Positions 1-63,080 of a stretch of 64,000 bases of DNA are shown here, piece by piece; positions within the stretch are counted from its first letter, which is position 1, and each line of letters starts with the position of its first letter. The stretch is from Alphaproteobacteria bacterium. GTDB taxonomy: Bacteria; Pseudomonadota; Alphaproteobacteria; Rickettsiales; UBA8987. The position numbers and the translations under genes were made by a program. Below the pieces are notes generated by a model. That model searched no databases and had not been told where the DNA came from. It saw nothing but the letters and a program-made list of their open reading frames with translations. The stretch lies in contig JBKCHH010000005.1 of assembly GCA_046302855.1 (NCBI GenBank), positions 26 through 64,025 on the forward strand. The letters run 5' to 3'.

Positions 1-124
1 CCAACTTAAAAATCCATCGCGGACTATCAAAAACCAGAAAGAAAAACGCTATAAAATTCTTCCTAAAAAACTTCAAAAAAAAACCAAAATAGCACCACAC
101 TTATTTAATTATGCCAAGTTTTTC

Positions 125-236
125 CGCTCTAGTGCACCACGCTTTGCCCTTAAGGCTTCGCGTGGCGCAGCCATCCGAAACCGTTAGGCTGAAGCAGTGT
201 CCGTCGCAACTCGCAAGAGCGAAGACGGGCTGATGA
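125..236. repeat. G+C-rich structured segment downstream of hemC, possibly a divergent fragment of the palindromic element family
   Basis: G+C well above flanks. Nested stems include a ctcGCAAgag hairpin. Shares the aaggcttcg motif and a ...ctgatgac terminus with elements elsewhere in the window. Confidence 0.3.
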
Positions 237-253
237 CATATGCTCTAAGTGTA

Positions 254-6914: not shown

Positions 6915-6957
6915 AATAAATAAGCAAAAAGTTTAGGCATAAAAATAAAAACGGATC

Positions 6958-7096
6958 GTTATTGCGAGGAGTCAAAATTTATTTTTGGCGACAAAGCAAT
7001 CCATAAGCAAGGTAGAGTTTAGTTTTCAGAAATAGTTATTGCAAGAAAAACCATTTTTGTGGATTGCCACGCTCGCTAAAGCTCGCTCGCAATGAC
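6958..7096. repeat. palindromic MITE/RPE-like element, type A
   Basis: Termini gttattgcgagg...ctcgcaatgac. Core caatccataagcaaggtagag...tgtggattgccac is shared with the copies at 15954, 17539, 23706 and 56906. Confidence 0.8.
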
Positions 7097-7102
7097 GATA
7101 TG

Positions 7103-14195: not shown

Positions 14196-15464
14196 ATGGT
14201 TCATCAATTAAGAAGAGTAGTAGTAACCGGTATTGGGCTTGTTACCCCCTTAGCTTGTGGGGTTGAACATACTTGGAAAAAGCTAATTGCTGGCGAAAGT
14301 GGGGTGGGGAAAATTACCCGTTTTGATGCCTCTAATATCTCTGCTCAAATAGCGGGGGAAGTGCCTTTTGGTGAAGAAGACTGGCAGTTTAATCCGGAAA
14401 GAGCCTTTTCTAAAAAAGATATCAAAAAAAATGACCTCTTCATTCAGTTTGCCATGCATGCTAGTGATGAGGCGATTAAAGATTCTGGCTGGTTGCCAGA
14501 AAAGGAAGAAGATTTCAAAAGAACCGGCGTTTTAATTGGGGCTGGTATTGGTGGCTTACCCGCCATTGAAGAATGTTCGCTAATTATGGAGAGGGATGGC
14601 TACCGCAGGGTTAGCCCATTTTTTATCCCTTCTGCCTTAATAAATTTAAGTTCAGGGCAGGTTTCTATAAAATATGGCTATAGAGGCCCTAACCACTCAG
14701 TAGTTACCGCCTGTGCCACAGGCGCACACGCTATTGGTGATGCTGCCAGATTAATTCAATTTGGTGATGCCGATGTTATGATTGCAGGTTCAAGCGAAGC
14801 AACCATTTGCCCAGCTGGCATAGGCGGTTTTGCGGCCGCTAGAGCCCTTTCTACAAAATATAATGATACTCCACAAAAGGCATCTAGACCTTGGGATGAT
14901 GCCAGAGACGGCTTCGTAATGGGCGAAGGGGCTGGAATTGTGGTATTAGAAGAATATGAACATGCCAAAAAAAGAAATGCCAAAATATATGGCGAAGTGG
15001 TTGGCTATGGCTTATCTGGCGATGGTTATCATGTAACTGCTCCACACCCTGAAGGTAGGGGTGGGTATGATGCTATGTTTAACGCTATGAAACGCTCTGG
15101 GCTAAATACTTCCGATGTAGATTACATCAACGCCCACGGCACCTCTACGCCACTTGGTGATATTATAGAGCTAAATGCGGTAAAAAAACTATTTGGTGCT
15201 AGTTCTTACGATTTGGCAATGTCTTCCACTAAATCTGCCATTGCACACCTGCTAGGTGGGGCTGGTAGCGTGGAGGCAATCTTTTCAATTCTTGCCATGC
15301 GGGATGGTATAATTCCACCCACCTTGAATTTAGATAACCCATCTGAGGGTTGCGATTTAAACCTTGTTCCCCATAAGGCGCAGGAAAAAAAGGTAAAGGT
15401 GGCAATGTCTAACTCCTTTGGCTTTGGTGGCACTAATGTGAGTTTGGTATTTAAGAAGGTTTAG
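14196..15464 (+). CDS. fabF: 3-oxoacyl-ACP synthase II
   Basis: 422 aa. VVTACATGAHAIGDA (active Cys), INAHGTSTPLGD, NSFGFGGTN. Confidence 0.95.
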   Translation: MVHQLRRVVVTGIGLVTPLACGVEHTWKKLIAGESGVGKITRFDASNISAQIAGEVPFGEEDWQFNPERAFSKKDIKKNDLFIQFAMHASDEAIKDSGWLPEKEEDFKRTGVLIGAGIGGLPAIEECSLIMERDGYRRVSPFFIPSALINLSSGQVSIKYGYRGPNHSVVTACATGAHAIGDAARLIQFGDADVMIAGSSEATICPAGIGGFAAARALSTKYNDTPQKASRPWDDARDGFVMGEGAGIVVLEEYEHAKKRNAKIYGEVVGYGLSGDGYHVTAPHPEGRGGYDAMFNAMKRSGLNTSDVDYINAHGTSTPLGDIIELNAVKKLFGASSYDLAMSSTKSAIAHLLGGAGSVEAIFSILAMRDGIIPPTLNLDNPSEGCDLNLVPHKAQEKKVKVAMSNSFGFGGTNVSLVFKKV

Positions 15465-15488
15465 AGTGGTTTTTGTGGGGGAAGAAAA

Positions 15489-15513
15489 GTGGGCCCCTTG
15501 TAAGGGGACCCAC
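15489..15513 (-). terminator. Rho-independent terminator of unit A
   Basis: On the minus strand, gtgggtcccc-ttacaa-ggggcccac is followed by ttttctt. Confidence 0.65.
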
Positions 15514-15536
15514 GGTTAGTTCTTCGGTCAGTCGCC

Positions 15537-15779
15537 CTAAAAATTAGGGTTGTTATTGTAGCAGGACGTTAATGAGAAGGTGCGCCTGCCTCCGAAGAGG
15601 GCGGTGTGTAAATTACTTCGGAAAGCTAACATAGCCTTCTTTATAATTTCGTGTTTCTGCTCATCGGGAAAGCTACCGATTGGGTCAATACGCCCATTGA
15701 CGACCACTTCGGTGACATACCAATTTCCATCACTCACATTCCGACTTATCTCAAGGGTGACTTTAACTTTTTCGTGCAT
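15537..15779 (-). CDS. hypothetical 80 aa protein inside unit A (coding status uncertain)
   Basis: AAGGAG lies 9 nt upstream of the ATG. The N-terminal 55 aa look protein-like (KVKVTLEISRNVSDGNWYVTEVVVNGRIDPIGSFPDEQKHEIIKKAML). The C-terminal third runs through stem-loop sequence. No family recognised. Confidence 0.35.
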   Translation of the reverse strand: MHEKVKVTLEISRNVSDGNWYVTEVVVNGRIDPIGSFPDEQKHEIIKKAMLAFRSNLHTALFGGRRTFSLTSCYNNNPNF

Positions 15780-15845
15780 GATGCTGTTCTCCTTAGCTAG
15801 TGGAAGGAATTAATCAAAAGGGACACCTGCCTCCGAAGGTGTAAA

Positions 15846-15950
15846 AATGGAACAATAGCAGTTTAACAGAGAGAGAGAGATAGAGTTTTCAATATAAAAT
15901 ATTGATTTCAGATAAGATTTTTTTGAAGTTTTAACCAAATTTTAACACTC
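15846..15950 (-). promoter_or_regulatory. conserved upstream module, copy A (paralogous to 45269..45365)
   Basis: Aligns with copy B. TTAA-N7-TTAAC (15931..15946), TTGAAA (15887..15892), (GA)n tract 15868..15880, TGCTATTGT extended -10-like (15852..15860). Confidence 0.5.
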
Positions 15951-15953
15951 TCT

Positions 15954-16084
15954 GTCATTGCGAGCGAGAGCTTTGCTTAGAAAGCGTGGCAATCCACAAA
16001 AATGGTTTTTCTTGAAAAAAACGACTGAAATCTAAGCTCTGCCTTGTTTATGGATTGCCTTGTCGCTTCGCTCCTCGCAATGAC
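15954..16084. repeat. palindromic MITE/RPE-like element, type A (inverted relative to 17539 copy)
   Basis: gtcattgcgagcgag...cctcgcaatgac termini. The core is the reverse complement of the 17539..17667 copy. Confidence 0.85.
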
Positions 16085-16140
16085 GACAAAAATAATAACG
16101 CCTAAAACTTTATAAAAAATTAATAATGCAGTAGTCTTTA

Positions 16141-16258
16141 ATTGCTATTGAATCGAAGTAAAAAACAATCCATAAACAAGATAGAACTTGGGCGTAAGGT
16201 ATTTTTTCAAGAAAAAACATTGTTGTGGATTGCTTCACCAAAAATGGCTCGCAATAAC
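16141..16258. repeat. degenerate type A palindromic element
   Basis: attgctattgaatcgaag...caatccataaacaagatagaacttgg...tgtggattgcttc...ctcgcaataac. Decayed termini. Confidence 0.6.
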
Positions 16259-17015: not shown

Positions 17016-17095
17016 AAATTTTTCCTAAAGTAAGTTGTTAATTGTATTGCCTAATAAGCCTTTTGTTTGTAATTGCAAGCACTAAAGCTATTGAT

Positions 17096-17527
17096 ATGAA
17101 AAATAAAAACATAGTGTTGGCAGGTTTGGGGAGCTTTTTGGCTCTGTTAATTCTTGGGTTTTTAAATGATATAAGTTTGCACCCTTTACTGGTTGCATCT
17201 TTTGGTGCATCGGCAGTTTTGCTATTTGTAGTGCCAGATGCCCCCTTTTCGCAACCAAAGAATGTAATTTTTGGGCATCTTATCTGTGCTGCCATTGGGC
17301 TAATATTTGTGGAGATTCCTTTTAACCCCATTTTTATGCAGGCATTGGCTCTTGGCGTTGCTATTATGCTGATGATGGCTTTTAAGGTGGTTCACCCAGC
17401 CTCTGGTAGCTTGCCTATTATAATTTTCCACACCCACCCAACACCCTTGTTTATTCTATTCCCTGTTTTTAGCGGAACTATTATTTTGGTAGCTACGGCT
17501 TATATTTATAATAAGGTTAGAAAATAA
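17096..17527 (+). CDS. HPP-family membrane protein
   Basis: ATG at 17096. Four hydrophobic spans. VVHPASGSLPII resembles the HPP motif. Confidence 0.55.
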   Translation: MKNKNIVLAGLGSFLALLILGFLNDISLHPLLVASFGASAVLLFVVPDAPFSQPKNVIFGHLICAAIGLIFVEIPFNPIFMQALALGVAIMLMMAFKVVHPASGSLPIIIFHTHPTPLFILFPVFSGTIILVATAYIYNKVRK

Positions 17528-17538
17528 TAAAAAAAGCC

Positions 17539-17667
17539 GTCATTGCGAGGAGCGAAGCGACAAAGCAATCCACAAACAAGGCAGAGCTTGGATTTCAGAT
17601 GCTTTTTGCAAGAAAAACCTTTGTTGTGGATTGCCACACTTCGAGCAAAGCTCTCGCTCGCAATGAC
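17539..17667. repeat. palindromic MITE/RPE-like element, type A (best-preserved copy)
   Basis: gtcattgcgaggagcgaagcgacaaagcaatccacaaacaaggcagagcttgg...ttgttgtggattgccacacttcgagcaaagctctcgctcgcaatgac. Lies in the convergent gap between the HPP gene and frr. Confidence 0.9.
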
Positions 17668-21073: not shown

Positions 21074-21290
21074 GTCATGAGCCGAGGGAGTCTCGCTGAA
21101 GCGATAGCGGAAGCAGACGACGCGGCAATCCAGACTAGCCTTCACCGTCATTGCGAGAAGTCTCGCTGAAGCGATAGCGGAAGCAGACGACGCGGCAATC
21201 CAGTTTATAAATACAATATTTTAGAATTTCTTTTTGAACTTTATTTACTGGATTGCTTCTGCACGAGCCTTGCTCTGCTAAGCTCATGAC
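21074..21290. repeat. composite type B palindromic element with tandemly duplicated left arm
   Basis: Left arm ...agtctcgctgaagcgatagcggaagcagacgacgcggcaatccag occurs twice (21074..21133 and 21147..21203). Outer termini are gtcatgagc / gctcatgac. Core ctggattgc. Confidence 0.8.
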
Positions 21291-23475: not shown

Positions 23476-23705
23476 TGGCCAAAATCTATAATAAAAAGAA
23501 TAACTACCTGAATTTATAGCAGTTTTTTATGAATAAATTATTATAAAGCTATAGAATCTTAAAGTTTTTTATCACTTCTTTTCTTCGCTGTAAAGGTTTA
23601 GGATATGTAGTGGTTTTTAGTAAGGGGAATAAAAGCAAACAATCGTAATTGATGTAAAGGTGTAATGCCAATAAGTATAAATAAGTATCCAAATCTAGGT
23701 ATATC

Positions 23706-23834
23706 GTCATTGCGATGAGCTTTAGCGAAGAAGCAATCCATAAACAAGGTAGAGCTTGGGTATCAGATATTTTTTCAAGAAAAACCATTTTTGTGGATTG
23801 CCACACTTCGAGCAAAGCTCTCGTTCGCAATGAC
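23706..23834. repeat. palindromic MITE/RPE-like element, type A
   Basis: gtcattgcgatgag...caatccataaacaaggtagagcttgg...gtggattgccacacttcgagcaaagctctcgttcgcaatgac. Confidence 0.9.
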
Positions 23835-37302: not shown

Positions 37303-37989
37303 TAAACAATTAAAAATTAACTGTTCGCCCTTAAAGCATGACTGGATTTTTCAAGTTCTTCTTAAAAAATTTTTCTTATTTTATAAGAGTTAGAGTTAGT
37401 TAAACTATTAAGCTAGATGGTGCTTTTGCCCCAGCAAAACCCAAGTAAAAATAGCCCTAAAACCTAAAAATTAGATGGCGGTTATAGTAGATAAAATTAT
37501 TATTGCAATAGCTTTTTTTGGACTTTTTTGTGGATTTTTTGGGGTTTCTAGTGGTTTTTCTATAGTTTTTTGCCAAGGCTAGAAGAGATAACTTGAAAAA
37601 TAGGTTTGGGTGTATTATGATGTTTCCCTAATTGACATCTAGTCACCTCAGCCCTAAGAAATTAGGGTCGACTAATTTTACCTAAACAACAGTTTTTTAA
37701 ATTTTTCACTTCTTTCTTTATAAAAAAAAGAAGGAGGGGGGCATTTTAGCCATCCTCCTACGCAACCGCAACCTTAACGCTTAGGTTTAACGCTTAGTTC
37801 GCTTTCTAAGCGCTCTCATTTTCATCACAGACCGGATGAAAAAATAGAGTAGCACCAGCTTTGTGAGCAGCGCTAAAAAAAGTGAAGTGACCAAAACGGT
37901 ACCTCGAAACATGTGAACACCCCTATTCTACCCTACGAAAAAAAAATCAAGAGTAAATTACTGATTTTATGCAGAAAAATATGGGTGTT

Positions 37990-38949
37990 TTAACAAATCT
38001 TTAACAAAGCTCTCTCTATTTCTTTATTACTTCTTTTGTAGCAGTAGGGAATGCCCAAATCTTGCAACTCACTAATTTCAGTAATTAGGGGAATTTCGCC
38101 AAAAAATGCCACCCCTTCTTTTTTGCAGAAAACCTGCACATTGCCATTACCGAAGGGGAATAACTTCTTGCCCGCCACTTCAAAAAAGCTCATATTTTCT
38201 ATTACACCAAGCACTGGAACCTCTAGCTTGCGGAGCATTTCTAAGGCTCTTTTTACATCTATTAACGCCACCTGCTGTGGGGTAGAAACCAAAACTACGC
38301 CACTAACATTATAAGTGCTAAACACGGTTAAATGAATATCGCCTGTGCCGGGGGGCAGGTCTAAAATTAAATAATCACAATCATCCCAACTTGCCTGCAC
38401 CATTAATTGCGAAACGGCTTTTGAAACCATTGGTCCACGCCAAATAAGGGCAGAACCCTCATCCACCAGCATTGCCATAGAAAGCACCTTTACCCCATAC
38501 TTTATAAAGGGAATGATTTTATTATCCTTAATGTCTGGCTTTTTACTTAGCCCAAAAATTTTGGCTATGGAAGGCCCGTGAATATCTAAATCTGCCAAGC
38601 CAACCCTATAGCCCTGCTTTGCTAAAGCCACAGCTAGATTAGCTGCTACAGAAGATTTCCCCACCCCACCCTTGCCACTTGCAACCGCAATAATTTTCTT
38701 TACCCCCTCTATATTTTTTTTGTTAGAAGAAATTTCCAGTTTATTAGTAAAAACAACTGAATTGTTAGCAAAGTGATATTTTTCTTTAACTAACTGCTCA
38801 ATTCTTGCTTTTAGCTTGTCTAATAAATTTTTATTTTGAGAGTCTGTTTCAAGTATTATAATTAAACGATTGTTATCAAAAGAAACTTGGCTTTTTAGCA
38901 AACTTAACTGCTCAATTTCTTTTTTTAATTCTTCCAACTTTGCTTGCAT
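37990..38949 (-). CDS. apbC: Mrp/ApbC-type iron-sulfur cluster carrier ATPase
   Basis: 319 aa. VASGKGGVGKSSVAANLA deviant Walker A, DLPPGTGD. Confidence 0.88.
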   Translation of the reverse strand: MQAKLEELKKEIEQLSLLKSQVSFDNNRLIIILETDSQNKNLLDKLKARIEQLVKEKYHFANNSVVFTNKLEISSNKKNIEGVKKIIAVASGKGGVGKSSVAANLAVALAKQGYRVGLADLDIHGPSIAKIFGLSKKPDIKDNKIIPFIKYGVKVLSMAMLVDEGSALIWRGPMVSKAVSQLMVQASWDDCDYLILDLPPGTGDIHLTVFSTYNVSGVVLVSTPQQVALIDVKRALEMLRKLEVPVLGVIENMSFFEVAGKKLFPFGNGNVQVFCKKEGVAFFGEIPLITEISELQDLGIPYCYKRSNKEIERALLKIC

Positions 38950-42693: not shown

Positions 42694-42815
42694 GTCGCCA
42701 TTGCGAGGAGCTTTCTCAAAAAAGCGACGCGGCAATCCAGTAAATAAAATTCAAAAAATATACCAAAAATATTGTATTTATAAACTGGATTGCTTGCGTG
42801 CCGCCTCGCAATGAC
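42694..42815. repeat. palindromic element, type B
   Basis: gtcgccattgcgagg...gcgacgcggcaatccag...ctggattgcttgcgtgccgcctcgcaatgac. Lies in the convergent htrA/miaA gap. Confidence 0.85.
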
Positions 42816-43722: not shown

Positions 43723-44634
43723 ATGCAGGTATTAACAGCAGTATCTAACCCACATCTTACTAAACTAGATGGCACACAAATCAACCATATTACTGATATT
43801 ATTAAGAAAAATGATGGAAAAATACTAGATATCGATGCCTTAAAACAGCTAGAAGCCTTTGAGATAAGTTTTTCTACCCTCAACCCCGCCTCAGTAGATA
43901 AGATTTTTATAGAGATGGAGAAATTTAAGCAACTAAACCTAATAGACTTTGCCATTCAAGAAAAAACTGATGATAGGAAAAAAAAGCTCCTTCTTGCCGA
44001 TATGGATTCTACCATAATAGAGCAGGAATGTTTGGATGAAATGGCACTGCTAGCTGGCATAAAAGATAAAATCCAGCTAATTACCGAAAAGGCAATGCGG
44101 GGCGAAATTAACTTTGAAAATGCTTTAATTGAGAGAATAAACTATCTAACTGATGTTCCTGTAAAAATAATGGAGCAGGTCTATGAGAAAATAAAAATAA
44201 GGGCAGGTGCCAAAAGTTTGGTAAATACTATGAAGGTAAATGGCGCTAGAACAATTTTAATTTCTGGCGGCTTTACCTTTTTTACCGAAAAAATTGCTAA
44301 TGCCGTTGGTTTTGATATTCAAAAGGCAAATGTGCTAGAGGAATCAAACGGCATGTTTACCGGCAAGGTAAGAATGCCAATTTTAGGGCCAAATGCAAAG
44401 CTGGAATGTTTAAAAATAAACGCCAAAGAGCTTGGAATTTCTATCAAGCAAGCAATAGCCGTGGGTGATGGGGCAAATGACTTGGGCATAATTCAAAATG
44501 CTGGTATTGGGGTTGCATTTAAAGCCAAGCCTATAATCCGCAACGCCACTAAATTTAGAATTGATTATTGTGATTTAACTGCTTTACTATACTTTCAAGG
44601 TTATAATAGCTACGAGATTCACTATATAAATTAA
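43723..44634 (+). CDS. serB: phosphoserine phosphatase
   Basis: 303 aa. HAD motifs LLLADMDSTIIEQE, ILISGGFTFF, AVGDGANDL. Confidence 0.85.
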   Translation: MQVLTAVSNPHLTKLDGTQINHITDIIKKNDGKILDIDALKQLEAFEISFSTLNPASVDKIFIEMEKFKQLNLIDFAIQEKTDDRKKKLLLADMDSTIIEQECLDEMALLAGIKDKIQLITEKAMRGEINFENALIERINYLTDVPVKIMEQVYEKIKIRAGAKSLVNTMKVNGARTILISGGFTFFTEKIANAVGFDIQKANVLEESNGMFTGKVRMPILGPNAKLECLKINAKELGISIKQAIAVGDGANDLGIIQNAGIGVAFKAKPIIRNATKFRIDYCDLTALLYFQGYNSYEIHYIN

Positions 44635-44694
44635 CTATTTATTAATCTCTATTGTTATATATACAGAAATTAACTAAATGCTTCAGGTAGTGCC

Positions 44695-44970
44695 ATGCTA
44701 TATCTTTCTAGAAAAATAGGGGAAACGATTATAATAAATGATAATATTGAAGTTACCGTTATTGATGTAAGCGGTAAAACCGTAAAGCTGGGCTTTGTTT
44801 ACCCAAATACTGCCAGCGTTTTACGCAAAGAAATTCACGAAAGAATAAAGGCAGAAAATGAATCTGCCAAACTTTCTAACAATAGTGATGAAAATATTCA
44901 AGAAATTCAAAAGGCGTTCAAAACCCTAACCCTACGCCGTAAACAACAGCAAGAAGAAGAAAATAAGTAG
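44695..44970 (+). CDS. csrA: carbon storage regulator CsrA with extended C-terminus
   Basis: 91 aa. MLYLSRKIGETIIINDNIEVTVIDVSGKTVKLGF...VLRKEIHERI, followed by about 35 extra residues. Confidence 0.85.
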   Translation: MLYLSRKIGETIIINDNIEVTVIDVSGKTVKLGFVYPNTASVLRKEIHERIKAENESAKLSNNSDENIQEIQKAFKTLTLRRKQQQEEENK

Positions 44971-44996
44971 GCTGAAAGATTTTTAAAAGTGAGGTT

Positions 44997-45268
44997 AAAA
45001 GACCCCCAGCGGTTGCTGGGGGGGGTAGTGGGGGTGAGCTAGGCTTTCTTGCCTAACTCATCAAGATGTGATAGAGAACGGCAGGGGGAAGCGAAGCGTT
45101 ATGGCCGTCCCTTGTTTTAGGACGGTATACGACCCCCGTTCTGTTCTCATACACCCGGGAGAAGCACTGGCTTCTGTCAAATCCTCAATCAATTGACTGA
45201 GGATTCTTGCGTCGCAGGTGAAGTGCGCTTGTAGGACTTGTAGGCGACCCATTGTGGGACTCCGTAAA
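44997..45268 (-). ncRNA. G+C-rich transcription unit B: candidate structured RNA of unknown class
   Basis: G+C well above flanks. Extended -10-like TGCTATTGT (45276..45284, minus) upstream and a terminator at 45003..45022. Hairpins aatcctca-N10-tgaggatt and ccgtcc-N9-ggacgg, long-range gagaac...ggggg / ccccc...gttctc pairing, tandem cctacaag x2. The only ORF (63-97 aa) has no family-like features. Confidence 0.4.
45003..45022 (-). terminator. terminator hairpin of unit B (possibly bidirectional with csrA)
   Basis: cccccagc-ggtt-gctggggg. On the minus strand it is followed by tctttt. Lies 33 nt after the csrA stop. Confidence 0.6.
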
Positions 45269-45365
45269 AAGGTGGACAATAGCATTTTAGTAGAGAGAGA
45301 GTTGTCAATACAAAATACTGATATTTTAAAAGAAAGTTTTAGGTTTTTAACCAAATTTTAATATA
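45269..45365 (-). promoter_or_regulatory. conserved upstream module, copy B (paralogous to 15846..15950)
   Basis: TTAA-N7-TTAA (45347..45361), TTGACA (45303..45308), (GA)5 tract 45292..45301, TGCTATTGT (45276..45284). Similarity continues into the first ~15 transcribed nt (CCAYYTTTTTAC). Confidence 0.5.
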
Positions 45366-45480
45366 TGATTCAAGTGGTAACAAAGGGGCTTGGCATATTT
45401 TTATTGCTAATAATTACATCTTCTAATATAGAACCCATACTTTTAAACTTAAGTTTATTTCTATAGTTTACCTATTCTAC

Positions 45481-45497
45481 GGGGTAGAGCAGTCTGG
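45481..45497 (+). repeat. duplicated 5' fragment of tRNA-fMet
   Basis: 17/17 nt identity (ggggtagagcagtctgg) with positions 4-20 of the tRNA at 45579. Followed by a perfect 12-bp hairpin tataagtttttt/aaaaaacttata. Confidence 0.7.
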
Positions 45498-45578
45498 CCT
45501 TATAAGTTTTTTCCTTTAAAAAACTTATATAAATTAAATTTGCTACCAGACTTTTATCTCCCTCGTGTTATTACCCGT

Positions 45579-45655
<77 letters not shown>

Positions 45656-45732
45656 ATCTAAAAGTATAATTAAAAAAATGCGGCGCGTTTTAAGAATTTT
45701 TTAAGTTTGATTTTCTACCAACCCTTAAATCT

Positions 45733-49808: not shown

Positions 49809-50012
49809 TTATGGGGAGCGAATACTAGGTGTAAAACCATAAACGGTAGCTCATTTAAAACAAGCACAATGGTTCTATTTCAATTCAACAGAGCCGAATT
49901 TCATATATTAGACTTCTTTCGTAACTATAAGTATCTCCCCTGTTTATTGCATTGATTTTAAAAGACTTTTTGAATAATTTTTACTTAATAATTTTTTGAA
50001 GAAAAATTATAT

Positions 50013-50080
50013 GCCCGCCCCTAATTTGCTGAAGGCAAATAGGGGCAGTGGGGGCGGGCACTTCTCAAAGGTTTTTTTTT
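50013..50080. terminator. long G+C-rich imperfect hairpin with flanking T-runs at left border of the island
   Basis: gcccgcccctaatttgc-tgaag-gcaaatagggg-(cagtg)-ggggcgggc. A T9 run lies 12 nt downstream on plus, and there is T-rich sequence on minus. The strand served is unclear. Confidence 0.35.
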
Positions 50081-50116
50081 AAGAAATAGCTTAGGTTATG
50101 AAAGAAGTCTATTACT

Positions 50117-50160
50117 CCAGTCCGCCTTCGCCAAGGCTTCGGCGAGACACTCGCTTTTGC
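50117..50160. repeat. fragment of a palindromic-element arm
   Basis: Reverse complement gcgagtgtctcgccgaagccttggcgaaggcggac closely matches the right arm of the 56906..57056 copy. No terminal inverted repeat is retained. Confidence 0.6.
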
Positions 50161-50228
50161 AACTCCGCACCAAAGGTGCGGGCAAAATCGGTGGTGGCGC
50201 AAGAAACTAACTCAGCTACTCATGCTGT

Positions 50229-50258
50229 GTATTTTTCCCTGAGAACAGGGAAAAATAC
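50229..50258. repeat. perfect 13-bp inverted repeat
   Basis: gtatttttccctg-agaa-cagggaaaaatac, followed by a third half-site cagggaaaatt. About 150 nt downstream of the CocE/NonD gene. Confidence 0.7.
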
Positions 50259-50404
50259 AGGGAAAATTCAAATTATAGCATCATGTTTTAGTATAGTTCT
50301 TAACAAAACAAAAATAACTACAATTTAACCTCTAGTCTATATAGCCAACATCTTAGTTTTTAAGTTCGTTTAATTTTTTATACCATTCCCAAGGGCGCTT
50401 GCCG

Positions 50405-56794: not shown

Positions 56795-56905
56795 CAAAAA
56801 ATAATATATTTATGTGATATATGTAGGGGGGTCTTTAAATGTAATATAATAAATAGTCAATAATAAACCTATTTATTTGTGGGGGGGGGGTGCTAAAGGA
56901 AAATC

Positions 56906-57056
56906 GTCATTGCTATTGACGCGAAGCGACAAAGCAATTGTCCAAAAACAAGGCAGAGCTTGGATAACAGACAAGTTTTTGCAAGAAACGCCTTTGTTGT
57001 GGATTGCCGCGTCGTCCGCCTACGCTAAGGCTTCGGCGAGACTTCCTCGCAATGAC
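56906..57056. repeat. palindromic element, type A core with type B-like extended right arm
   Basis: gtcattgctattgacgcgaagcgacaaagcaat...ggcagagcttgg...gtggattgccgcgtcgtccgcctacgctaaggcttcggcgagacttcctcgcaatgac. Confidence 0.85.
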
Positions 57057-61930: not shown

Positions 61931-62164
61931 AAATAGTTTTTACCACAAATCTCCCCAAAAAAACACATCTGTTAACTATTTATTAACTAAGTTTTTAGAA
62001 ACCATAATAAATACAATCATAGGTTGAAGAAAATGGGTGACGATGAACTGAGGCAAATTAGCAACATATCAACAATATTTAACCATCTTATTTAAAATCA
62101 CCCTTCCGCACTCAACTAAAAATTGTAATTTTGAATAACTAATAAAACAACAATAGGAGAGTTT

Positions 62165-62566
62165 ATGGAAGATAATTTTAACCTAAAGCACGAAAATTCT
62201 ACTGAATATGATTCTAAGCAAACAAGCCCAGAAACAGCCCTGTGGCGGGCGGTAATTACGCAGGCTTTAATGGACGCTGGCTCTTCCTCTAAAAAACAAG
62301 AAATGAACTATTCTAGGTATCATGCCAAATCTTGGTTGCAGGGCGATAGTAAAGATTTTGAACTAGTGTGTGATTTAGCAGGTTTAAACCCATATTATGT
62401 TTCTAAAAACTCTAAAAAGGCAATAGCGAAAAAATGCACTTGGCGAAAAACTAAAAAGGAAAAGGCTAGAAACTATATAAATATAATTACCCCAGATTCT
62501 ATTGATGGAATTATTACCATACCTATGCAGGCGGGGTTTCCTTCTGGTGCATCCGACGGGATTTGA
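62165..62566 (+). CDS. hypothetical phage-like protein; 3' end runs 22 nt into tRNA-Arg
   Basis: 133 aa, AGGAG RBS. The central [16 protein letters not shown]...[24 protein letters not shown] is of a kind seen in small prophage proteins (recognition by memory only). The last ~20 codons look like read-through. Confidence 0.4.
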
Positions 62567-62672: not shown

Positions 62673-63080
62673 ATGATTACTTTATTCGGTAGCCTTATTG
62701 GCTTTTTTGGCTCAATAATTCCAGACATTGTAAAAATATTTCAAGATAGGCAAGATAAAAGGCACGAGCTTGAGATATTAAAGTTGCAAATTGAGCGAGA
62801 AAAAACCATCCACGGACAAAAGCTAGAGGCAATTTCTCAGCAGGCAGATATTGCAGAGGCGAAAGTTTTGTATCAAACCTATAAAACAGAAATAAAATGG
62901 GTGGACGCCCTAAATGGCACTGTTCGCCCTGTTATTGCCTATAGTTTCTTTTTTCTATACGCCTTTTTAAAAATTGAACTTAGCGATAATTTGTGGACTG
63001 AGGAGGACCAAGCCATCTTCGCCGGCATCATAAGTTTTTACTTTGGGCAAAGAAGCATGTGGAAAATGCGTGGAAGATAA
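62673..63080 (+). CDS. holin-like protein (3-TM, GTA/phage-release holin type)
   Basis: 135 aa. N-terminal IIPDIVKIF..RHELEILKLQIERE, central coiled region, hydrophobic RPVIAYSFFFLYAFL and IFAGIISFYFGQRS. Immediately precedes the lysozyme. Confidence 0.55.
   Translation: MITLFGSLIGFFGSIIPDIVKIFQDRQDKRHELEILKLQIEREKTIHGQKLEAISQQADIAEAKVLYQTYKTEIKWVDALNGTVRPVIAYSFFFLYAFLKIELSDNLWTEEDQAIFAGIISFYFGQRSMWKMRGR

What the first reader, a model, noticed from the sequence alone, without database searches (positions are those of the whole stretch)
15485..15950. G+C-rich unit A: a promoter-to-terminator mini-locus of unknown function
Seen on the minus strand, in order:
- a TTAA-N7-TTAAC box;
- TTGAAA;
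- a (TC)n tract;
- TGCTATTGT, an extended -10-like element;
- a ~360 nt body much richer in G+C than the genome;
- a strong terminator, gtgggtcccc/ggggcccac followed by a T-run.

The body holds an 80-codon ORF with a good AAGGAG RBS. It also has RNA-like features: a CCUC-UUCG-GAGG tetraloop hairpin, a 5' hairpin acacct-N8-aggtgt, and the 13-mer cttcggaggcagg present both in the leader and near the ORF 3' end. A ~30 nt motif around ccctaa-aaa-ttaggg recurs at 37652..37667. I found no hallmarks of tmRNA, RNase P, SRP or 6S RNA. The whole upstream ~100 bp is paralogous to the region upstream of unit B (45269..45365), although the two bodies are unrelated. This may be a small regulon of uncharacterised RNAs or micro-proteins under a common signal.
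Basis: partly seen in the sequence, partly recalled or inferred. Interest (0 to 1): 0.65.

Follow-up and report, generated by a model that had tools for sequence, protein, structure and literature searches.

The report
Reused promoter module driving strain-variable micro-genes
Unit A looks like a real promoter-to-terminator mini-gene in an uncultured alphaproteobacterium: an 80-codon ORF with no relatives sits behind a ~100-bp promoter/leader module that recurs at one or two other loci, close relatives carry unrelated sequence in its place, and its function is unproven.

Summary

- **Not a known RNA.** It matches no Rfam family and as a whole folds no better than shuffled sequence.
- **Orphan ORF.** The 80-aa ORF matches only itself in a word-indexed search of 5.8 billion protein clusters and a full phmmer scan of 1.84 billion representatives.
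- **Host.** The organism is a flagellated, AT-rich alphaproteobacterium known only from metagenomes.
- **Shared module.** The upstream module is truly paralogous to the one upstream of unit B. A third, diverged copy probably precedes a 41-codon ORF at 37.9 kb.
- **Module content.** It holds a CtrA-type box (TTAA-N7-TTAAC, inverted relative to transcription) at a fixed 22 nt from a conserved ATCA block. It also holds a TTGACA-like hexamer, a (CT)n tract and -10-like elements.
- **Variable tract.** The (CT)n tract varies from about 3.5 to 9 units between loci and strains.
- **Variable cargo.** In ~95-96% identical strains the module and flanking genes are kept, but the cargo at both loci is unrelated sequence. 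Where the cargo is seen whole, or up to a contig end, it carries its own ORF of 43 to at least 120 codons.

Best reading: a reused, probably CtrA-responsive promoter/leader expressing accessory small proteins of foreign composition. Transcription, translation and the regulator are all inferred, not shown.

The parts
15928..15946 (-). Upstream box GTTAAAATTTGGTTAAAAC. It is TTAACCAAATTTTAAC (TTAA-N7-TTAAC, CtrA-type) on the + strand, and a direct repeat of GTTAA at an 11-bp period on the transcribed strand.
   Evidence: The identical 17-mer occurs at unit B (45345-45361). GTTAA-N6-GTTAA occurs 3 times in the window against 0.39 expected. Motif definition from PMC9791040.
15895..15910 (-). Conserved block ..TGAAATCAATATTTTA... 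It contains a -10-like TGAAAT (15910-15905) placed 18 nt after the TTAAAA half of the box, and a match to the IHF consensus WATCAANNNNTTR (15907-15895).
   Evidence: The box-to-ATCA spacing is exactly 22 nt in units A, B and C, by counting on the sequences. Units B and C have TAAAAT here, and so does the unit A ortholog in L175. Consensus matching only.
15887..15892 (-). TTGAAA, a -35-like hexamer. It is TTGACA in every other copy.
   Evidence: The window carries the derived A at 15888.
15868..15885 (-). (CT)n tract: 9 units, with one interruption in the window. Its length differs between loci and strains.
   Evidence: 9 units (unit A in window and L001), about 4.5 (unit A in L174), 5 (unit B in window), 3.5 (unit B in L004/L179).
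15852..15865 (-). TAAACTGCTATTGT: two overlapping -10 candidates, TAAACT and the extended -10-like TGCTATTGT.
   Evidence: Conserved in units A and B; unit C has TAGAAT at the aligned position.
15810..15851 (-). Conserved leader: TTCCATTTTTAC, then the hairpin ACACCT-TCGGAGGC-AGGTGT (15842-15823), then CCCTTTTGATTAA. This is the left copy of the 29-nt direct repeat.
   Evidence: The L174 ortholog keeps the hairpin with a U-A to C-G change at its base. BLAST homology between window and L174 ends at 15814.
15789..15794 (-). Shine-Dalgarno AAGGAG, 9 nt before the ATG.
15537..15779 (-). 80-codon orphan ORF (MHEKVKVTLEIS...NNNPNF). G+C 44%, GC3 0.52 against 0.33 in the window's genes.
15569..15597 (-). 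Right copy of the leader repeat (CTTCGGAGGCAGGCGCACCTTCTCATTAA), read in frame as about codons 61-71 of the ORF.
15535..15549 (-). CCCTAATTTTTAGGG hairpin, which contains the stop codon. A second copy lies at 37652-37667.
   Evidence: (z -3.2).
15485..15513 (-). Intrinsic terminator GTGGGTCCCC-TTACAA-GGGGCCCAC plus a T-run, 25 nt from the stop of the convergent fabF.
   Evidence: A similar hairpin is kept in strain L171 but not in L168.
45274..45363 (-). Unit B copy of the module.
44988..45273 (-). Unit B leader, GGAG-N7-ATG (ATG 45252-45250), 63-codon ORF (45252-45061) and terminator (45022-45003). It is convergent with csrA (44695-44970).
   Evidence: (RNA fold z -5.35).
37722..38005 (-). 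Unit C, a probable diverged third copy. Box GTTAAAGATTTGTTAAAAC (38005-37987), 22 nt to ATCA, TTGATT, a T9 run in place of (CT)n, TAGAAT (37930-37925), ATG at 37912, a 41-codon hydrophobic ORF and a terminator.
   Evidence: nhmmer gives only E = 5, so the link is weak.

Best explanation
**What it is.** Unit A is a stand-alone, monocistronic small-gene cassette. In order it has a promoter/leader module, a Shine-Dalgarno site, an 80-codon ORF and an intrinsic terminator.

**The module.** The ~100-115 bp module is a duplicated, reusable promoter plus 5' leader. The same module drives an unrelated ORF at unit B, and a diverged copy probably drives unit C. It combines these elements:
- an OmpR-family-type direct-repeat box that matches the alphaproteobacterial CtrA consensus;
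- a spacing-locked AT-rich block;
- a length-polymorphic (CT)n tract;
- -10-like elements.

**Proposed mechanism (inferred).** A CtrA-like response regulator binds the box and activates transcription. The (CT)n length sets either promoter geometry or leader length. The transcript is translated from the Shine-Dalgarno site and ATG into a small accessory protein.

**The cargo.** It has foreign base composition and is accessory. In ~95-96% identical strains, the sequence between the leader and the terminator at both loci is unrelated, and each alternative seen whole or to a contig end has its own ORF.

**Shown:** the anatomy, the paralogy of the module, the orphan status of the ORF, its composition, the cargo differences between strains, and the tract polymorphism.

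**Inferred:** the transcription start, translation, the identity of the regulator, and any function of the protein.
For: **Anatomy and module**
- The anatomy is confirmed.
- The module is paralogous between units A and B. A three-way alignment with unit C shows the same box-to-ATCA spacing.
- The organism is an alphaproteobacterium: its FabF is at most 70% identical to Rickettsiales and other alphaproteobacterial MAGs. It has flagellar genes.
- CtrA motifs are TTAA-N7-TTAAC and TTAACCAT, and CtrA is conserved across alphaproteobacteria (PMC9791040). The box on the + strand is TTAACCAAATTTTAAC.
- Other TTAA-N7-TTAA boxes lie just upstream of csrA and beside GTA-type holin and lysozyme genes.

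**Coding**
- AAGGAG lies 9 nt before the ATG.
- The ORF spans 80 of the 89 codons available before the terminator (p = 0.010). Two independent cargos at unit B give p = 0.086 and 0.034.
- The ORF frame scores best of the three frames in 4 of 4 cargos. GC1 exceeds GC2 in unit A, L004 and L174.
- AlphaFold2 on the single sequence gives a compact beta/alpha model, pLDDT 66.
- A fourth cargo at the unit B locus (L185) is an ORF of at least 120 aa.

**Against an RNA gene**
- No Rfam hit. Whole-unit fold z is -1.6.

**Cargo replacement**
- L004, L179 and L182 keep csrA, the terminator and the module through the ATG at about 95%, but have an unrelated 210-nt body.
- L174 keeps unit A's module and leader but has a different ORF.
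- L171 and L168 differ from the window at the fabF-proximal end.

**The promoter core is where changes cluster**
- 3 of the 8 differences between the window and a same-strain contig over 9,123 nt fall within 23 nt of it.
Against: - There is no expression data of any kind.
- The ORF has no homolog in 5.8 billion clusters or 1.84 billion representatives. Its codon usage is non-native in every frame.
- Its last ~20 codons are read from a duplicated copy of the leader plus flanking sequence. That looks accidental or chimeric.
- The box is inverted relative to the canonical CtrA orientation. If the downstream -10 is used, the box sits near -95 rather than at -35, where most CtrA-activated promoters have it (PMC11264516).
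- No TTGACA-to--10 spacing is 16-18 nt in any copy. Observed spacings are 11-29 nt (counted).
- TTAA-N7-TTAA is not enriched in the window overall: 8 found against 11.8 expected.
- Only two solid copies of the module were seen.
- Unit B's ORF shows no codon-position signal, and its model is poor, pLDDT 51.
Confidence: 0.5

Rival explanations
1. Decaying or accidental locus. A duplicated promoter/leader sits in front of a scrap of foreign DNA or a gene fragment. The 80-codon ORF is a chimeric read-through with no selected function, and the differences between strains reflect neutral turnover at a recombination hot spot.
For: - The ORF is an orphan with non-native codon usage.
- The ORF tail is read from a duplicated leader copy.
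- In L174 the ORF ends inside a repeat, GGCATAATTAAATAAGTGTGGTG. The same repeat marks other junctions: L004, L006, L007 and window 93-115.
- The window's lineage has three derived substitutions in the promoter core, including TTGACA to TTGAAA and an interruption of the CT tract. This is compatible with decay.
- Contigs break at these loci in several assemblies.
Against: - The SD and ATG are kept, and ORFs fill 81-91% of three independent cargos.
- The body is identical in four independent samples of the same strain.
- The terminators are strong.
- One alternative cargo is an ORF of at least 120 aa.
- The AlphaFold2 model of the unit A product is moderately confident.
Confidence: 0.25
2. Non-coding or dual-function small RNA. 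The transcript itself is the effector, and the ORF is fortuitous or secondary. It could, for example, be a CtrA-controlled riboregulator or a partner of the CsrA encoded next to unit B.
For: - G+C-rich bodies with strong terminators.
- The leader hairpin shows a compensatory change between strains.
- GGA lies in the hairpin loop and in the Shine-Dalgarno site.
- Unit B RNA is strongly structured (z -5.35), and its L004 replacement less so (z -3.46).
- csrA is adjacent to unit B.
- CtrA-dependent sRNAs exist in Caulobacter, for example CcnA (PMC8959179).
Against: - No Rfam family matches, even at E<=10.
- Unit A as a whole is not unusually structured (z -1.6), and the leader hairpins are unremarkable (z about -0.5 to -1.1).
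- GGA is not enriched: 5 against 5.05 expected in unit A, 3 against 3.18 in unit B.
- The unrelated bodies at one locus in close strains share only the leader, SD and ATG. That points to translation as the common property.
Confidence: 0.15
3. The module is the outward-facing end of a mobile element (MITE, IS or small integrative cassette) rather than a resident regulated promoter. Units A and B are then insertion products.
For: - Unit A's module abuts a palindromic ~130-nt repeat family.
- Leader-length direct repeats flank 212 nt of unit A.
- The repeat GGCATAATTAAA.. recurs at the variable junctions and beside tRNA-Met.
- Unit B lies next to a tRNA-Met with duplicated 5' fragments.
Against: - Units B and C lack the palindromic repeat next to the module.
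- The A/B paralogy starts exactly at the box and ends in the leader, with no terminal inverted repeats.
- No transposase or integrase lies nearby.
- The module is absent from viral contigs, and the unit A body from plasmids and phages.
- The module stays in place while the cargo changes.
Confidence: 0.1

Closest known systems
Putative mobile promoters / promoter reuse (Matus-Garcia, Nijveen & van Passel 2012, PMC3488235; PMC3575422)
   Same: A highly similar ~100-bp upstream region sits in front of non-homologous genes within one genome.
   Different: - Here the shared piece extends into the 5' leader, and at unit B up to the SD and ATG.
- It carries a response-regulator-type box and a dinucleotide repeat.
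- The downstream genes themselves are exchanged between close strains.
- No link to a transposable element is shown.
CtrA-dependent promoters of alphaproteobacteria (TTAA-N7-TTAAC / TTAACCAT; PMC9791040, PMC11264516)
   Same: - The box matches the 9-mer consensus exactly on one strand, and begins with TTAACCAA (7 of 8 positions of the 8-mer).
- The host is an alphaproteobacterium with flagellar and GTA-like genes, which are typical CtrA targets.
- An embedded TTAAAA-N16-18-T(A/G)AAAT would place the box at -35.
   Different: - The box is inverted relative to the direction of transcription.
- With the downstream -10, the box is about 95 bp upstream of the start.
- CtrA itself was not seen in the window, and no binding data exist.
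Promoters made phase-variable by simple-sequence repeats. From my own knowledge: Haemophilus hifA/B (TA)n, Neisseria porA/opc homopolymers, and Mycoplasma vlp poly(A) with a conserved 5' region and variable genes.
   Same: A short tandem repeat lies between -35-like and -10-like hexamers, and its unit number differs between strains and loci (3.5 to 9).
   Different: - No spacing observed equals 16-18 nt.
- No within-population switching could be examined.
- The products are not surface proteins: they have no signal peptide.
- The tract may instead lie within the 5' UTR.
Integron Pc/attI expression platform with exchangeable cassettes
   Same: A fixed promoter and leader sit in front of exchangeable, promoterless, compositionally foreign small ORFs. 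Short repeats occur at cassette borders.
   Different: - No integrase and no attC sites.
- One cargo per locus.
- No array.
- The exchange mechanism is unknown.
Csr/Rsm-type CsrA-sequestering sRNAs (CsrB, RsmY/Z)
   Same: An independent G+C-rich transcript with its own upstream regulator box and terminator. Unit B is adjacent to csrA.
   Different: GGA motifs are at chance level, there is no Rfam match, and an ORF preceded by an SD fills the body.

Membership tests
Any Rfam 15 RNA family (including 6S, tmRNA, RNase P, SRP, alphaproteobacterial sRNAs, CsrB/Rsm) | Covariance-model score at or above the gathering threshold | tested here: not met
   One search found only four tRNAs in the window. 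(E<=10) gave only chance-level miRNA/snoRNA-type hits over units A and B.
Csr/Rsm CsrA-sponge sRNA | Many GGA / ANGGA motifs, well above chance, mostly in hairpin loops | tested here: not met
   unit A has 5 GGA against 5.05 expected; unit B has 3 against 3.18.
CtrA regulon promoter | TTAA-N7-TTAAC (or TTAACCAT) motif in the promoter region | tested here: met
   TTAACCAAATTTTAAC at 15931-15946 on the + strand, which is inverted relative to unit A. Unit B has TTAACCAAATTTTAAT. Motif definition from PMC9791040.
CtrA regulon promoter | Box overlapping the -35 position of the activated promoter (the usual case, PMC11264516) | tested here: inconclusive
   This depends on the unknown transcription start. 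TTAAAA-N16-18-T(A/G)AAAT is embedded in the module. The alternative downstream -10 (TAAACT / TGCTATTGT) would put the box near -95.
CtrA regulon promoter | CtrA encoded by the organism, and CtrA binding or dependence | not testable with these tools
   The genome beyond the window is not in the searchable collections. None of the roughly 15 window proteins scanned against Pfam is a response regulator.
Putative mobile promoter (PMC3488235) | Highly similar upstream region in front of non-homologous genes in one genome | tested here: met
   Searches show the module similarity. The cargo ORFs match no common family, and the only A/B nucleotide similarity found is in the module.
Putative mobile promoter (PMC3488235) | Association with a mobile element that could move it | tested here: inconclusive
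   A palindromic repeat abuts unit A only. The junction repeat GGCATAATTAAA.. lies near variable cargos. No transposase or integrase is present.
SSR phase-variable promoter (contingency locus) | Repeat-number polymorphism of a tract within the promoter | tested here: met
   Between loci and strains the tract has 9, about 4.5, 5 and 3.5 CT units.
SSR phase-variable promoter (contingency locus) | Reversible, high-frequency switching within a population that changes expression | not testable with these tools
   Only consensus assemblies are available. Same-strain contigs from four samples carry the same length.
Integron gene cassette | intI integrase, attI, and attC at the cassette 3' end | tested here: not met
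   No integrase-sized ORF lies near either unit. I did not run a dedicated attC search. The only shared 3' motifs are the terminator and a 15-nt hairpin.
Known protein families (Pfam, NCBIfam, PHROGs, PADLOC) | Profile-HMM match at or above the curated cut-off, or a significant E-value | tested here: not met
   Searches give nothing for the unit A ORF or any alternative cargo ORF.
Armadillo-repeat protein | A significant match to an ARM repeat and an all-helical fold | tested here: not met
   the E-value of 7e-9 against designed ARM proteins is the sum of four weak matches to identical repeats, each with i-E 2.6-33. Pfam Arm is not hit. AlphaFold2 predicts beta strands where helices would be.

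The most novel reading that the evidence does not exclude
Units A, B and perhaps C are 'expression sites'. Each has a fixed CtrA-type box, an SSR-containing promoter and a leader, and acts as a landing pad into which short foreign ORF cassettes are swapped by a still-unknown recombination mechanism.

Hints in that direction are the duplicated leader flanking 212 nt of unit A, and the GGCATAATTAAA.. junction repeat. Together these would give an endosymbiont-like alphaproteobacterium a strain-specific set of micro-proteins, timed by the cell cycle and possibly phase-variable (effectors or conflict genes). It would be an integron-like logic without an integron.
Probability: 0.12. Interest if true: 0.8.

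Novelty: new variant of a known kind. Interest (0 to 1): 0.45.

Why it matters
If the reading holds, it shows how a reduced, AT-rich alphaproteobacterial genome puts newly acquired or newly arisen micro-genes under an existing regulatory signal. A ready-made promoter/leader is reused, and only the cargo turns over between strains.

It would also add small orphan proteins to the CtrA-type regulon of an uncultured lineage. It gives a concrete sequence handle, the module profile, for counting such loci in metagenomes.

If the locus is only decaying DNA behind a duplicated promoter, the finding is ordinary.

Tried and rejected
**RNA and promoter readings**
- Rfam at both thresholds gave nothing.
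- The Csr-sponge idea is rejected: GGA is at chance level.
- A sigma-54 reading of the core fails. GG and GC are 6 nt apart, not 10, and GG is absent in the window's own copy (by eye).
- A canonical sigma-70 pair is not found in unit A.
- CTATTGT as a shared promoter word with csrA is not enriched: 11 against 9.5 expected.
- A diversity-generating retroelement is rejected. The repeat differences are not adenine-specific, and I saw no reverse-transcriptase-like gene near either unit.

**Protein readings**
- Armadillo-repeat similarity is an artefact of summing matches to identical repeats.
- My own guess of a HicB/UPF0150-like fold got no support: every Foldseek match against the PDB has E > 1.

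**Searches for relatives and further copies**
- Unit A body against plasmids and phages: no match.
- Module pattern in metagenome contigs and in viral contigs: no match. The metagenome collection evidently lacks the samples that hold this organism.
- FabF-anchored scans of genome and metagenome contigs reached at most 70% identity, so they gave no usable synteny.
- A protein search with the peptide that a gene caller would read across the module, meant to find further copies, found nothing. Searches failed on parameter limits.
- Exact look-ups of the unit C peptide and of EF-Tu are not on record, so unit C could not be compared between strains.
- nhmmer with the module profile found no further copy in the window, and none in the roughly 160 other alphaproteobacterial loci.
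Full report

Yes. Reading 15300-16200 on the minus strand and locating each motif by script gives the following.

| Element | Coordinates |
|---|---|
| Box GTTAAAATTTGGTTAAAAC | 15946-15928 |
| TTGAAA | 15892-15887 |
| (CT)n tract | 15885-15868 |
| TAAACT / TGCTATTGT | 15865-15852 |
| Hairpin ACACCT-N8-AGGTGT | 15842-15823 |
| AAGGAG (9 nt before the ATG) | 15794-15789 |
| 80-codon ORF | 15779-15537 |
| Second 13-mer, within CCTC-TTCG-GAGG | 15597-15585 |
| CCCTAATTTTTAGGG | 15535-15549 |
| Terminator (-18.5 kcal/mol, z -3.9) | 15513-15489 |

The transcript region is 46% G+C against 37% for the window.

- The box is TTAA-N7-TTAAC only on the + strand.
- TTGAAA and TATTGT are 29 nt apart, so they are not a canonical sigma-70 pair. 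The scan finds none.
- The 13-mer is the core of a 29-nt, 83%-identical direct repeat (15838-15810 and 15597-15569). By eye it extends to about 44 nt, so the leader is duplicated inside the 3' part of the ORF. A repeat of at least 13 nt arose in 2 of 2000 shuffles.
- The motif shared with 37652-37667 is only the ~20-nt hairpin. Two copies still exceed the 0.02 expected.

**2. It is not a known RNA or a known protein.**

- Rfam finds only four tRNAs in the window at gathering score. Over units A and B it finds nothing but chance-level hits at E<=10.
- Unit A as a whole folds no better than shuffles (z -1.6). Its leader hairpins are unremarkable.
- The 80-aa ORF matches only itself, both in the word-indexed search of 5.8 billion clusters and in a full phmmer scan of 1.84 billion representatives.
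- It matches nothing in Pfam, PHROGs, NCBIfam or PADLOC.
- A PDB hit to designed armadillo-repeat proteins (E 7e-9) is the sum of four weak matches to identical repeats. I discount it.
- AlphaFold2 on the single sequence gives a compact beta-beta-alpha-beta model, pLDDT 66. It has no structural neighbour in the PDB.

**3. Host and context.**

- FabF, immediately convergent with unit A, is at most 70% identical to anything in the genome or metagenome contig collections. The best hits are Rickettsiales and other alphaproteobacterial MAGs.
- The window also encodes FlgF/G/H, a pilin-like protein, a phasin, a GTA-type holin and a phage lysozyme. It also encodes a CsrA, convergent with unit B.
- The same strain occurs in several metagenomes at about 99.8-100% identity (L001-L003, L005, L173, L181, L183). 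Strains about 95-96% identical occur in others (L004, L006, L007, L168, L171, L174, L175, L179, L182, L185).

**4. The upstream module.**

- Units A and B share about 100 nt, starting exactly at the box and running into the leader. A profile search finds just these two copies in the window (E about 1e-21), and none in about 160 other alphaproteobacterial loci.
- A three-way alignment shows that the region upstream of a 41-codon hydrophobic ORF at 37.9 kb (unit C) has the same order of blocks. These are the box GTTAAAGATTTGTTAAAAC, the same 22-nt distance to ATCA, TTGAtt, a T9 run in place of (CT)n, and TAGAAT. Statistically this third copy is weak (nhmmer E = 5).
- The direct repeat GTTAA-N6-GTTAA occurs three times in the window against 0.39 expected.
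- The box equals the CtrA consensus TTAA-N7-TTAAC, and begins with TTAACCAA, close to the 8-mer TTAACCAT (PMC9791040). It is inverted relative to the units.
- Two core promoters are possible:
  - (a) The TTAAAA half of the box acts as -35, followed 16-18 nt later by TAAAAT. This is seen in units B and C and in the L175 ortholog of unit A; the window has TGAAAT. It is the usual CtrA layout (PMC11264516).
  - (b) The downstream TAAACT / extended -10-like TGCTATTGT is used, which puts the box near -95.
- The (CT)n tract has 9, about 4.5, 5 and 3.5 units in unit A (window), unit A (L174), unit B (window) and unit B (L004) respectively.
- No TTGACA-to--10 spacing is 16-18 nt in any copy.
- Of the 8 differences between the window and a same-strain contig over 9,123 nt, three fall within 23 nt of the promoter core. 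They are TTGACA to TTGAAA, an interruption of the tract, and GG to GT. In each case the window carries the derived state (with L174/L175 as outgroups).

**5. The cargo varies between strains.**

At unit B:
- L004, L179 and L182 keep csrA, the terminator and the module through the SD and ATG at about 95%. They carry an unrelated 210-nt body with its own 64-codon ORF.
- L185 carries yet another body, with an ORF of at least 120 aa open to the contig end.
- L006 and L007 have a third junction.

At unit A:
- L174 keeps the module and the leader hairpin, with a U-A to C-G change at its base. It then has a different ORF. BLAST homology with the window ends at 15814, at the end of the left leader repeat.
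- L171 and L168 diverge from the window at or before the terminator on the fabF side.

**6. Coding or RNA?**

- The ORFs anchored on the SD and ATG fill 80 of 89, 63 of 79 and 64 of 73 available codons in three unrelated cargos. Shuffle p values are 0.010, 0.086 and 0.034.
- The ORF frame scores best of the three frames in all four cargos. GC1 exceeds GC2 in three of them, but codon usage is non-native throughout: GC3 is 0.52 against 0.33.
- GGA motifs are at chance level, so this is not a CsrA sponge.
- Unit B RNA is strongly structured (z -5.35). Its ORF has no codon-position signal, and its AlphaFold2 model is poor. An RNA role therefore cannot be excluded for that unit.
- Against a selected protein in unit A: it is an orphan, and its last ~20 codons are read from the duplicated leader and flank.

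**7. Interpretation.**

Most likely (about 0.5), unit A is a monocistronic accessory micro-gene expressed from a reused promoter/leader module that is probably CtrA-responsive.

| Rival | Weight |
|---|---|
| Neutral or decaying scrap behind a duplicated promoter | 0.25 |
| Non-coding or dual-function RNA | 0.15 |
| Module as part of a mobile element | 0.10 |

The closest described concept is promoter reuse, or 'putative mobile promoters' (PMC3488235). Resemblances to SSR phase-variable promoters and to integron expression platforms concern how it may work, not membership of those families.

Nothing here shows transcription, translation or regulator binding.

Noticed in passing
window 6956-7100, 15954-16085, 16160-16240, 17538-17667, 23704-23834, 56895-57049; second family 21083-21256, 42696-42793: Two families of ~60-130-nt palindromic intergenic repeats, reminiscent of MITEs or Rickettsia palindromic elements (..GCAATCCA..TGGATTGC..CTCGCAATGAC). 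One copy directly abuts unit A's module.
   Followed up: partly
window 17042-17527 (HPP-family gene), flanked by inverted repeat arms 15982-16085 / 17538-17641: The HPP membrane-protein gene is absent from the ~95% strains L174 and L175, where frr is followed directly by the 246-aa lipoprotein gene. The indel coincides with copies of the palindromic repeat.
   Followed up: partly
window 45479-45502 and tRNA-Met 45579-45655; L004 3780-4200; L183; L179: The 5' part of tRNA-Met plus about 80 nt of upstream sequence is duplicated next to unit B. The copy number of this ~100-nt unit differs between assemblies, from one extra copy in the window to at least four in L004, where an N-gap interrupts the array.
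   Followed up: partly
window 93-115 (-); L004 4445-4466; L006 3448-3469; L007 2527-2548; L174 6540-6561; related 17-mers beside tRNA-Met (window 45664-45680; L004 4264-4298): The repeat GGCATAATTAAA(T/G)AAGTGTGGTG marks junctions where strains differ. It ends the ORF in L174's unit A cargo and the 143-aa ORF in L004 with the same ..FRHN* residues. It may be a recombination or mobile-element end.
   Followed up: partly
L004 4456-5409 (-), between tRNA-Met and the fabG-like gene: A two-gene insertion (143 aa and 169 aa) that the window lacks. The 169-aa protein weakly matches the PADLOC candidate defence family PDC-M32A (E 1.5e-5).
   Followed up: partly
window 44631-44645 and 61972-61986: The identical 15-mer TTAACTATTTATTAA (TTAA-N7-TTAA) lies about 50 nt upstream of csrA. 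It also lies upstream of ORF 62165-62566, next to a GTA-type holin (62673-63080) and a phage lysozyme (63059-63517). These are possible canonical-orientation CtrA boxes.
   Followed up: partly
window 37722-38005 (-): Unit C: a CtrA-type box at the end of the mrp gene, a T9 run, TAGAAT, a 41-codon hydrophobic ORF with a basic tail (MFRGTVLVTSLFLALLTKLVLLYFFIRSVMKMRALRKRTKR), and a strong terminator. The peptide resembles a type I toxin or small membrane protein. It is not on record as a called gene.
   Followed up: partly
window 45180-45205: A near-perfect 26-nt palindrome, AATCCTCA(A/G)TCAATTGA(T/C)TGAGGATT, lies inside unit B's body. It contributes to the unusually stable predicted RNA structure (z -5.35).
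   Followed up: no
window 116-253 and 49809-50404: Further G+C-rich intergenic patches (up to 53% in 150 nt) with hairpins and repeat fragments, but without the module.
   Followed up: no
window 44695-44970: A CsrA homolog (Pfam PF02599) with a ~30-aa acidic/basic C-terminal extension, in an alphaproteobacterium that also has flagellar genes. No fliW was looked for.
   Followed up: no
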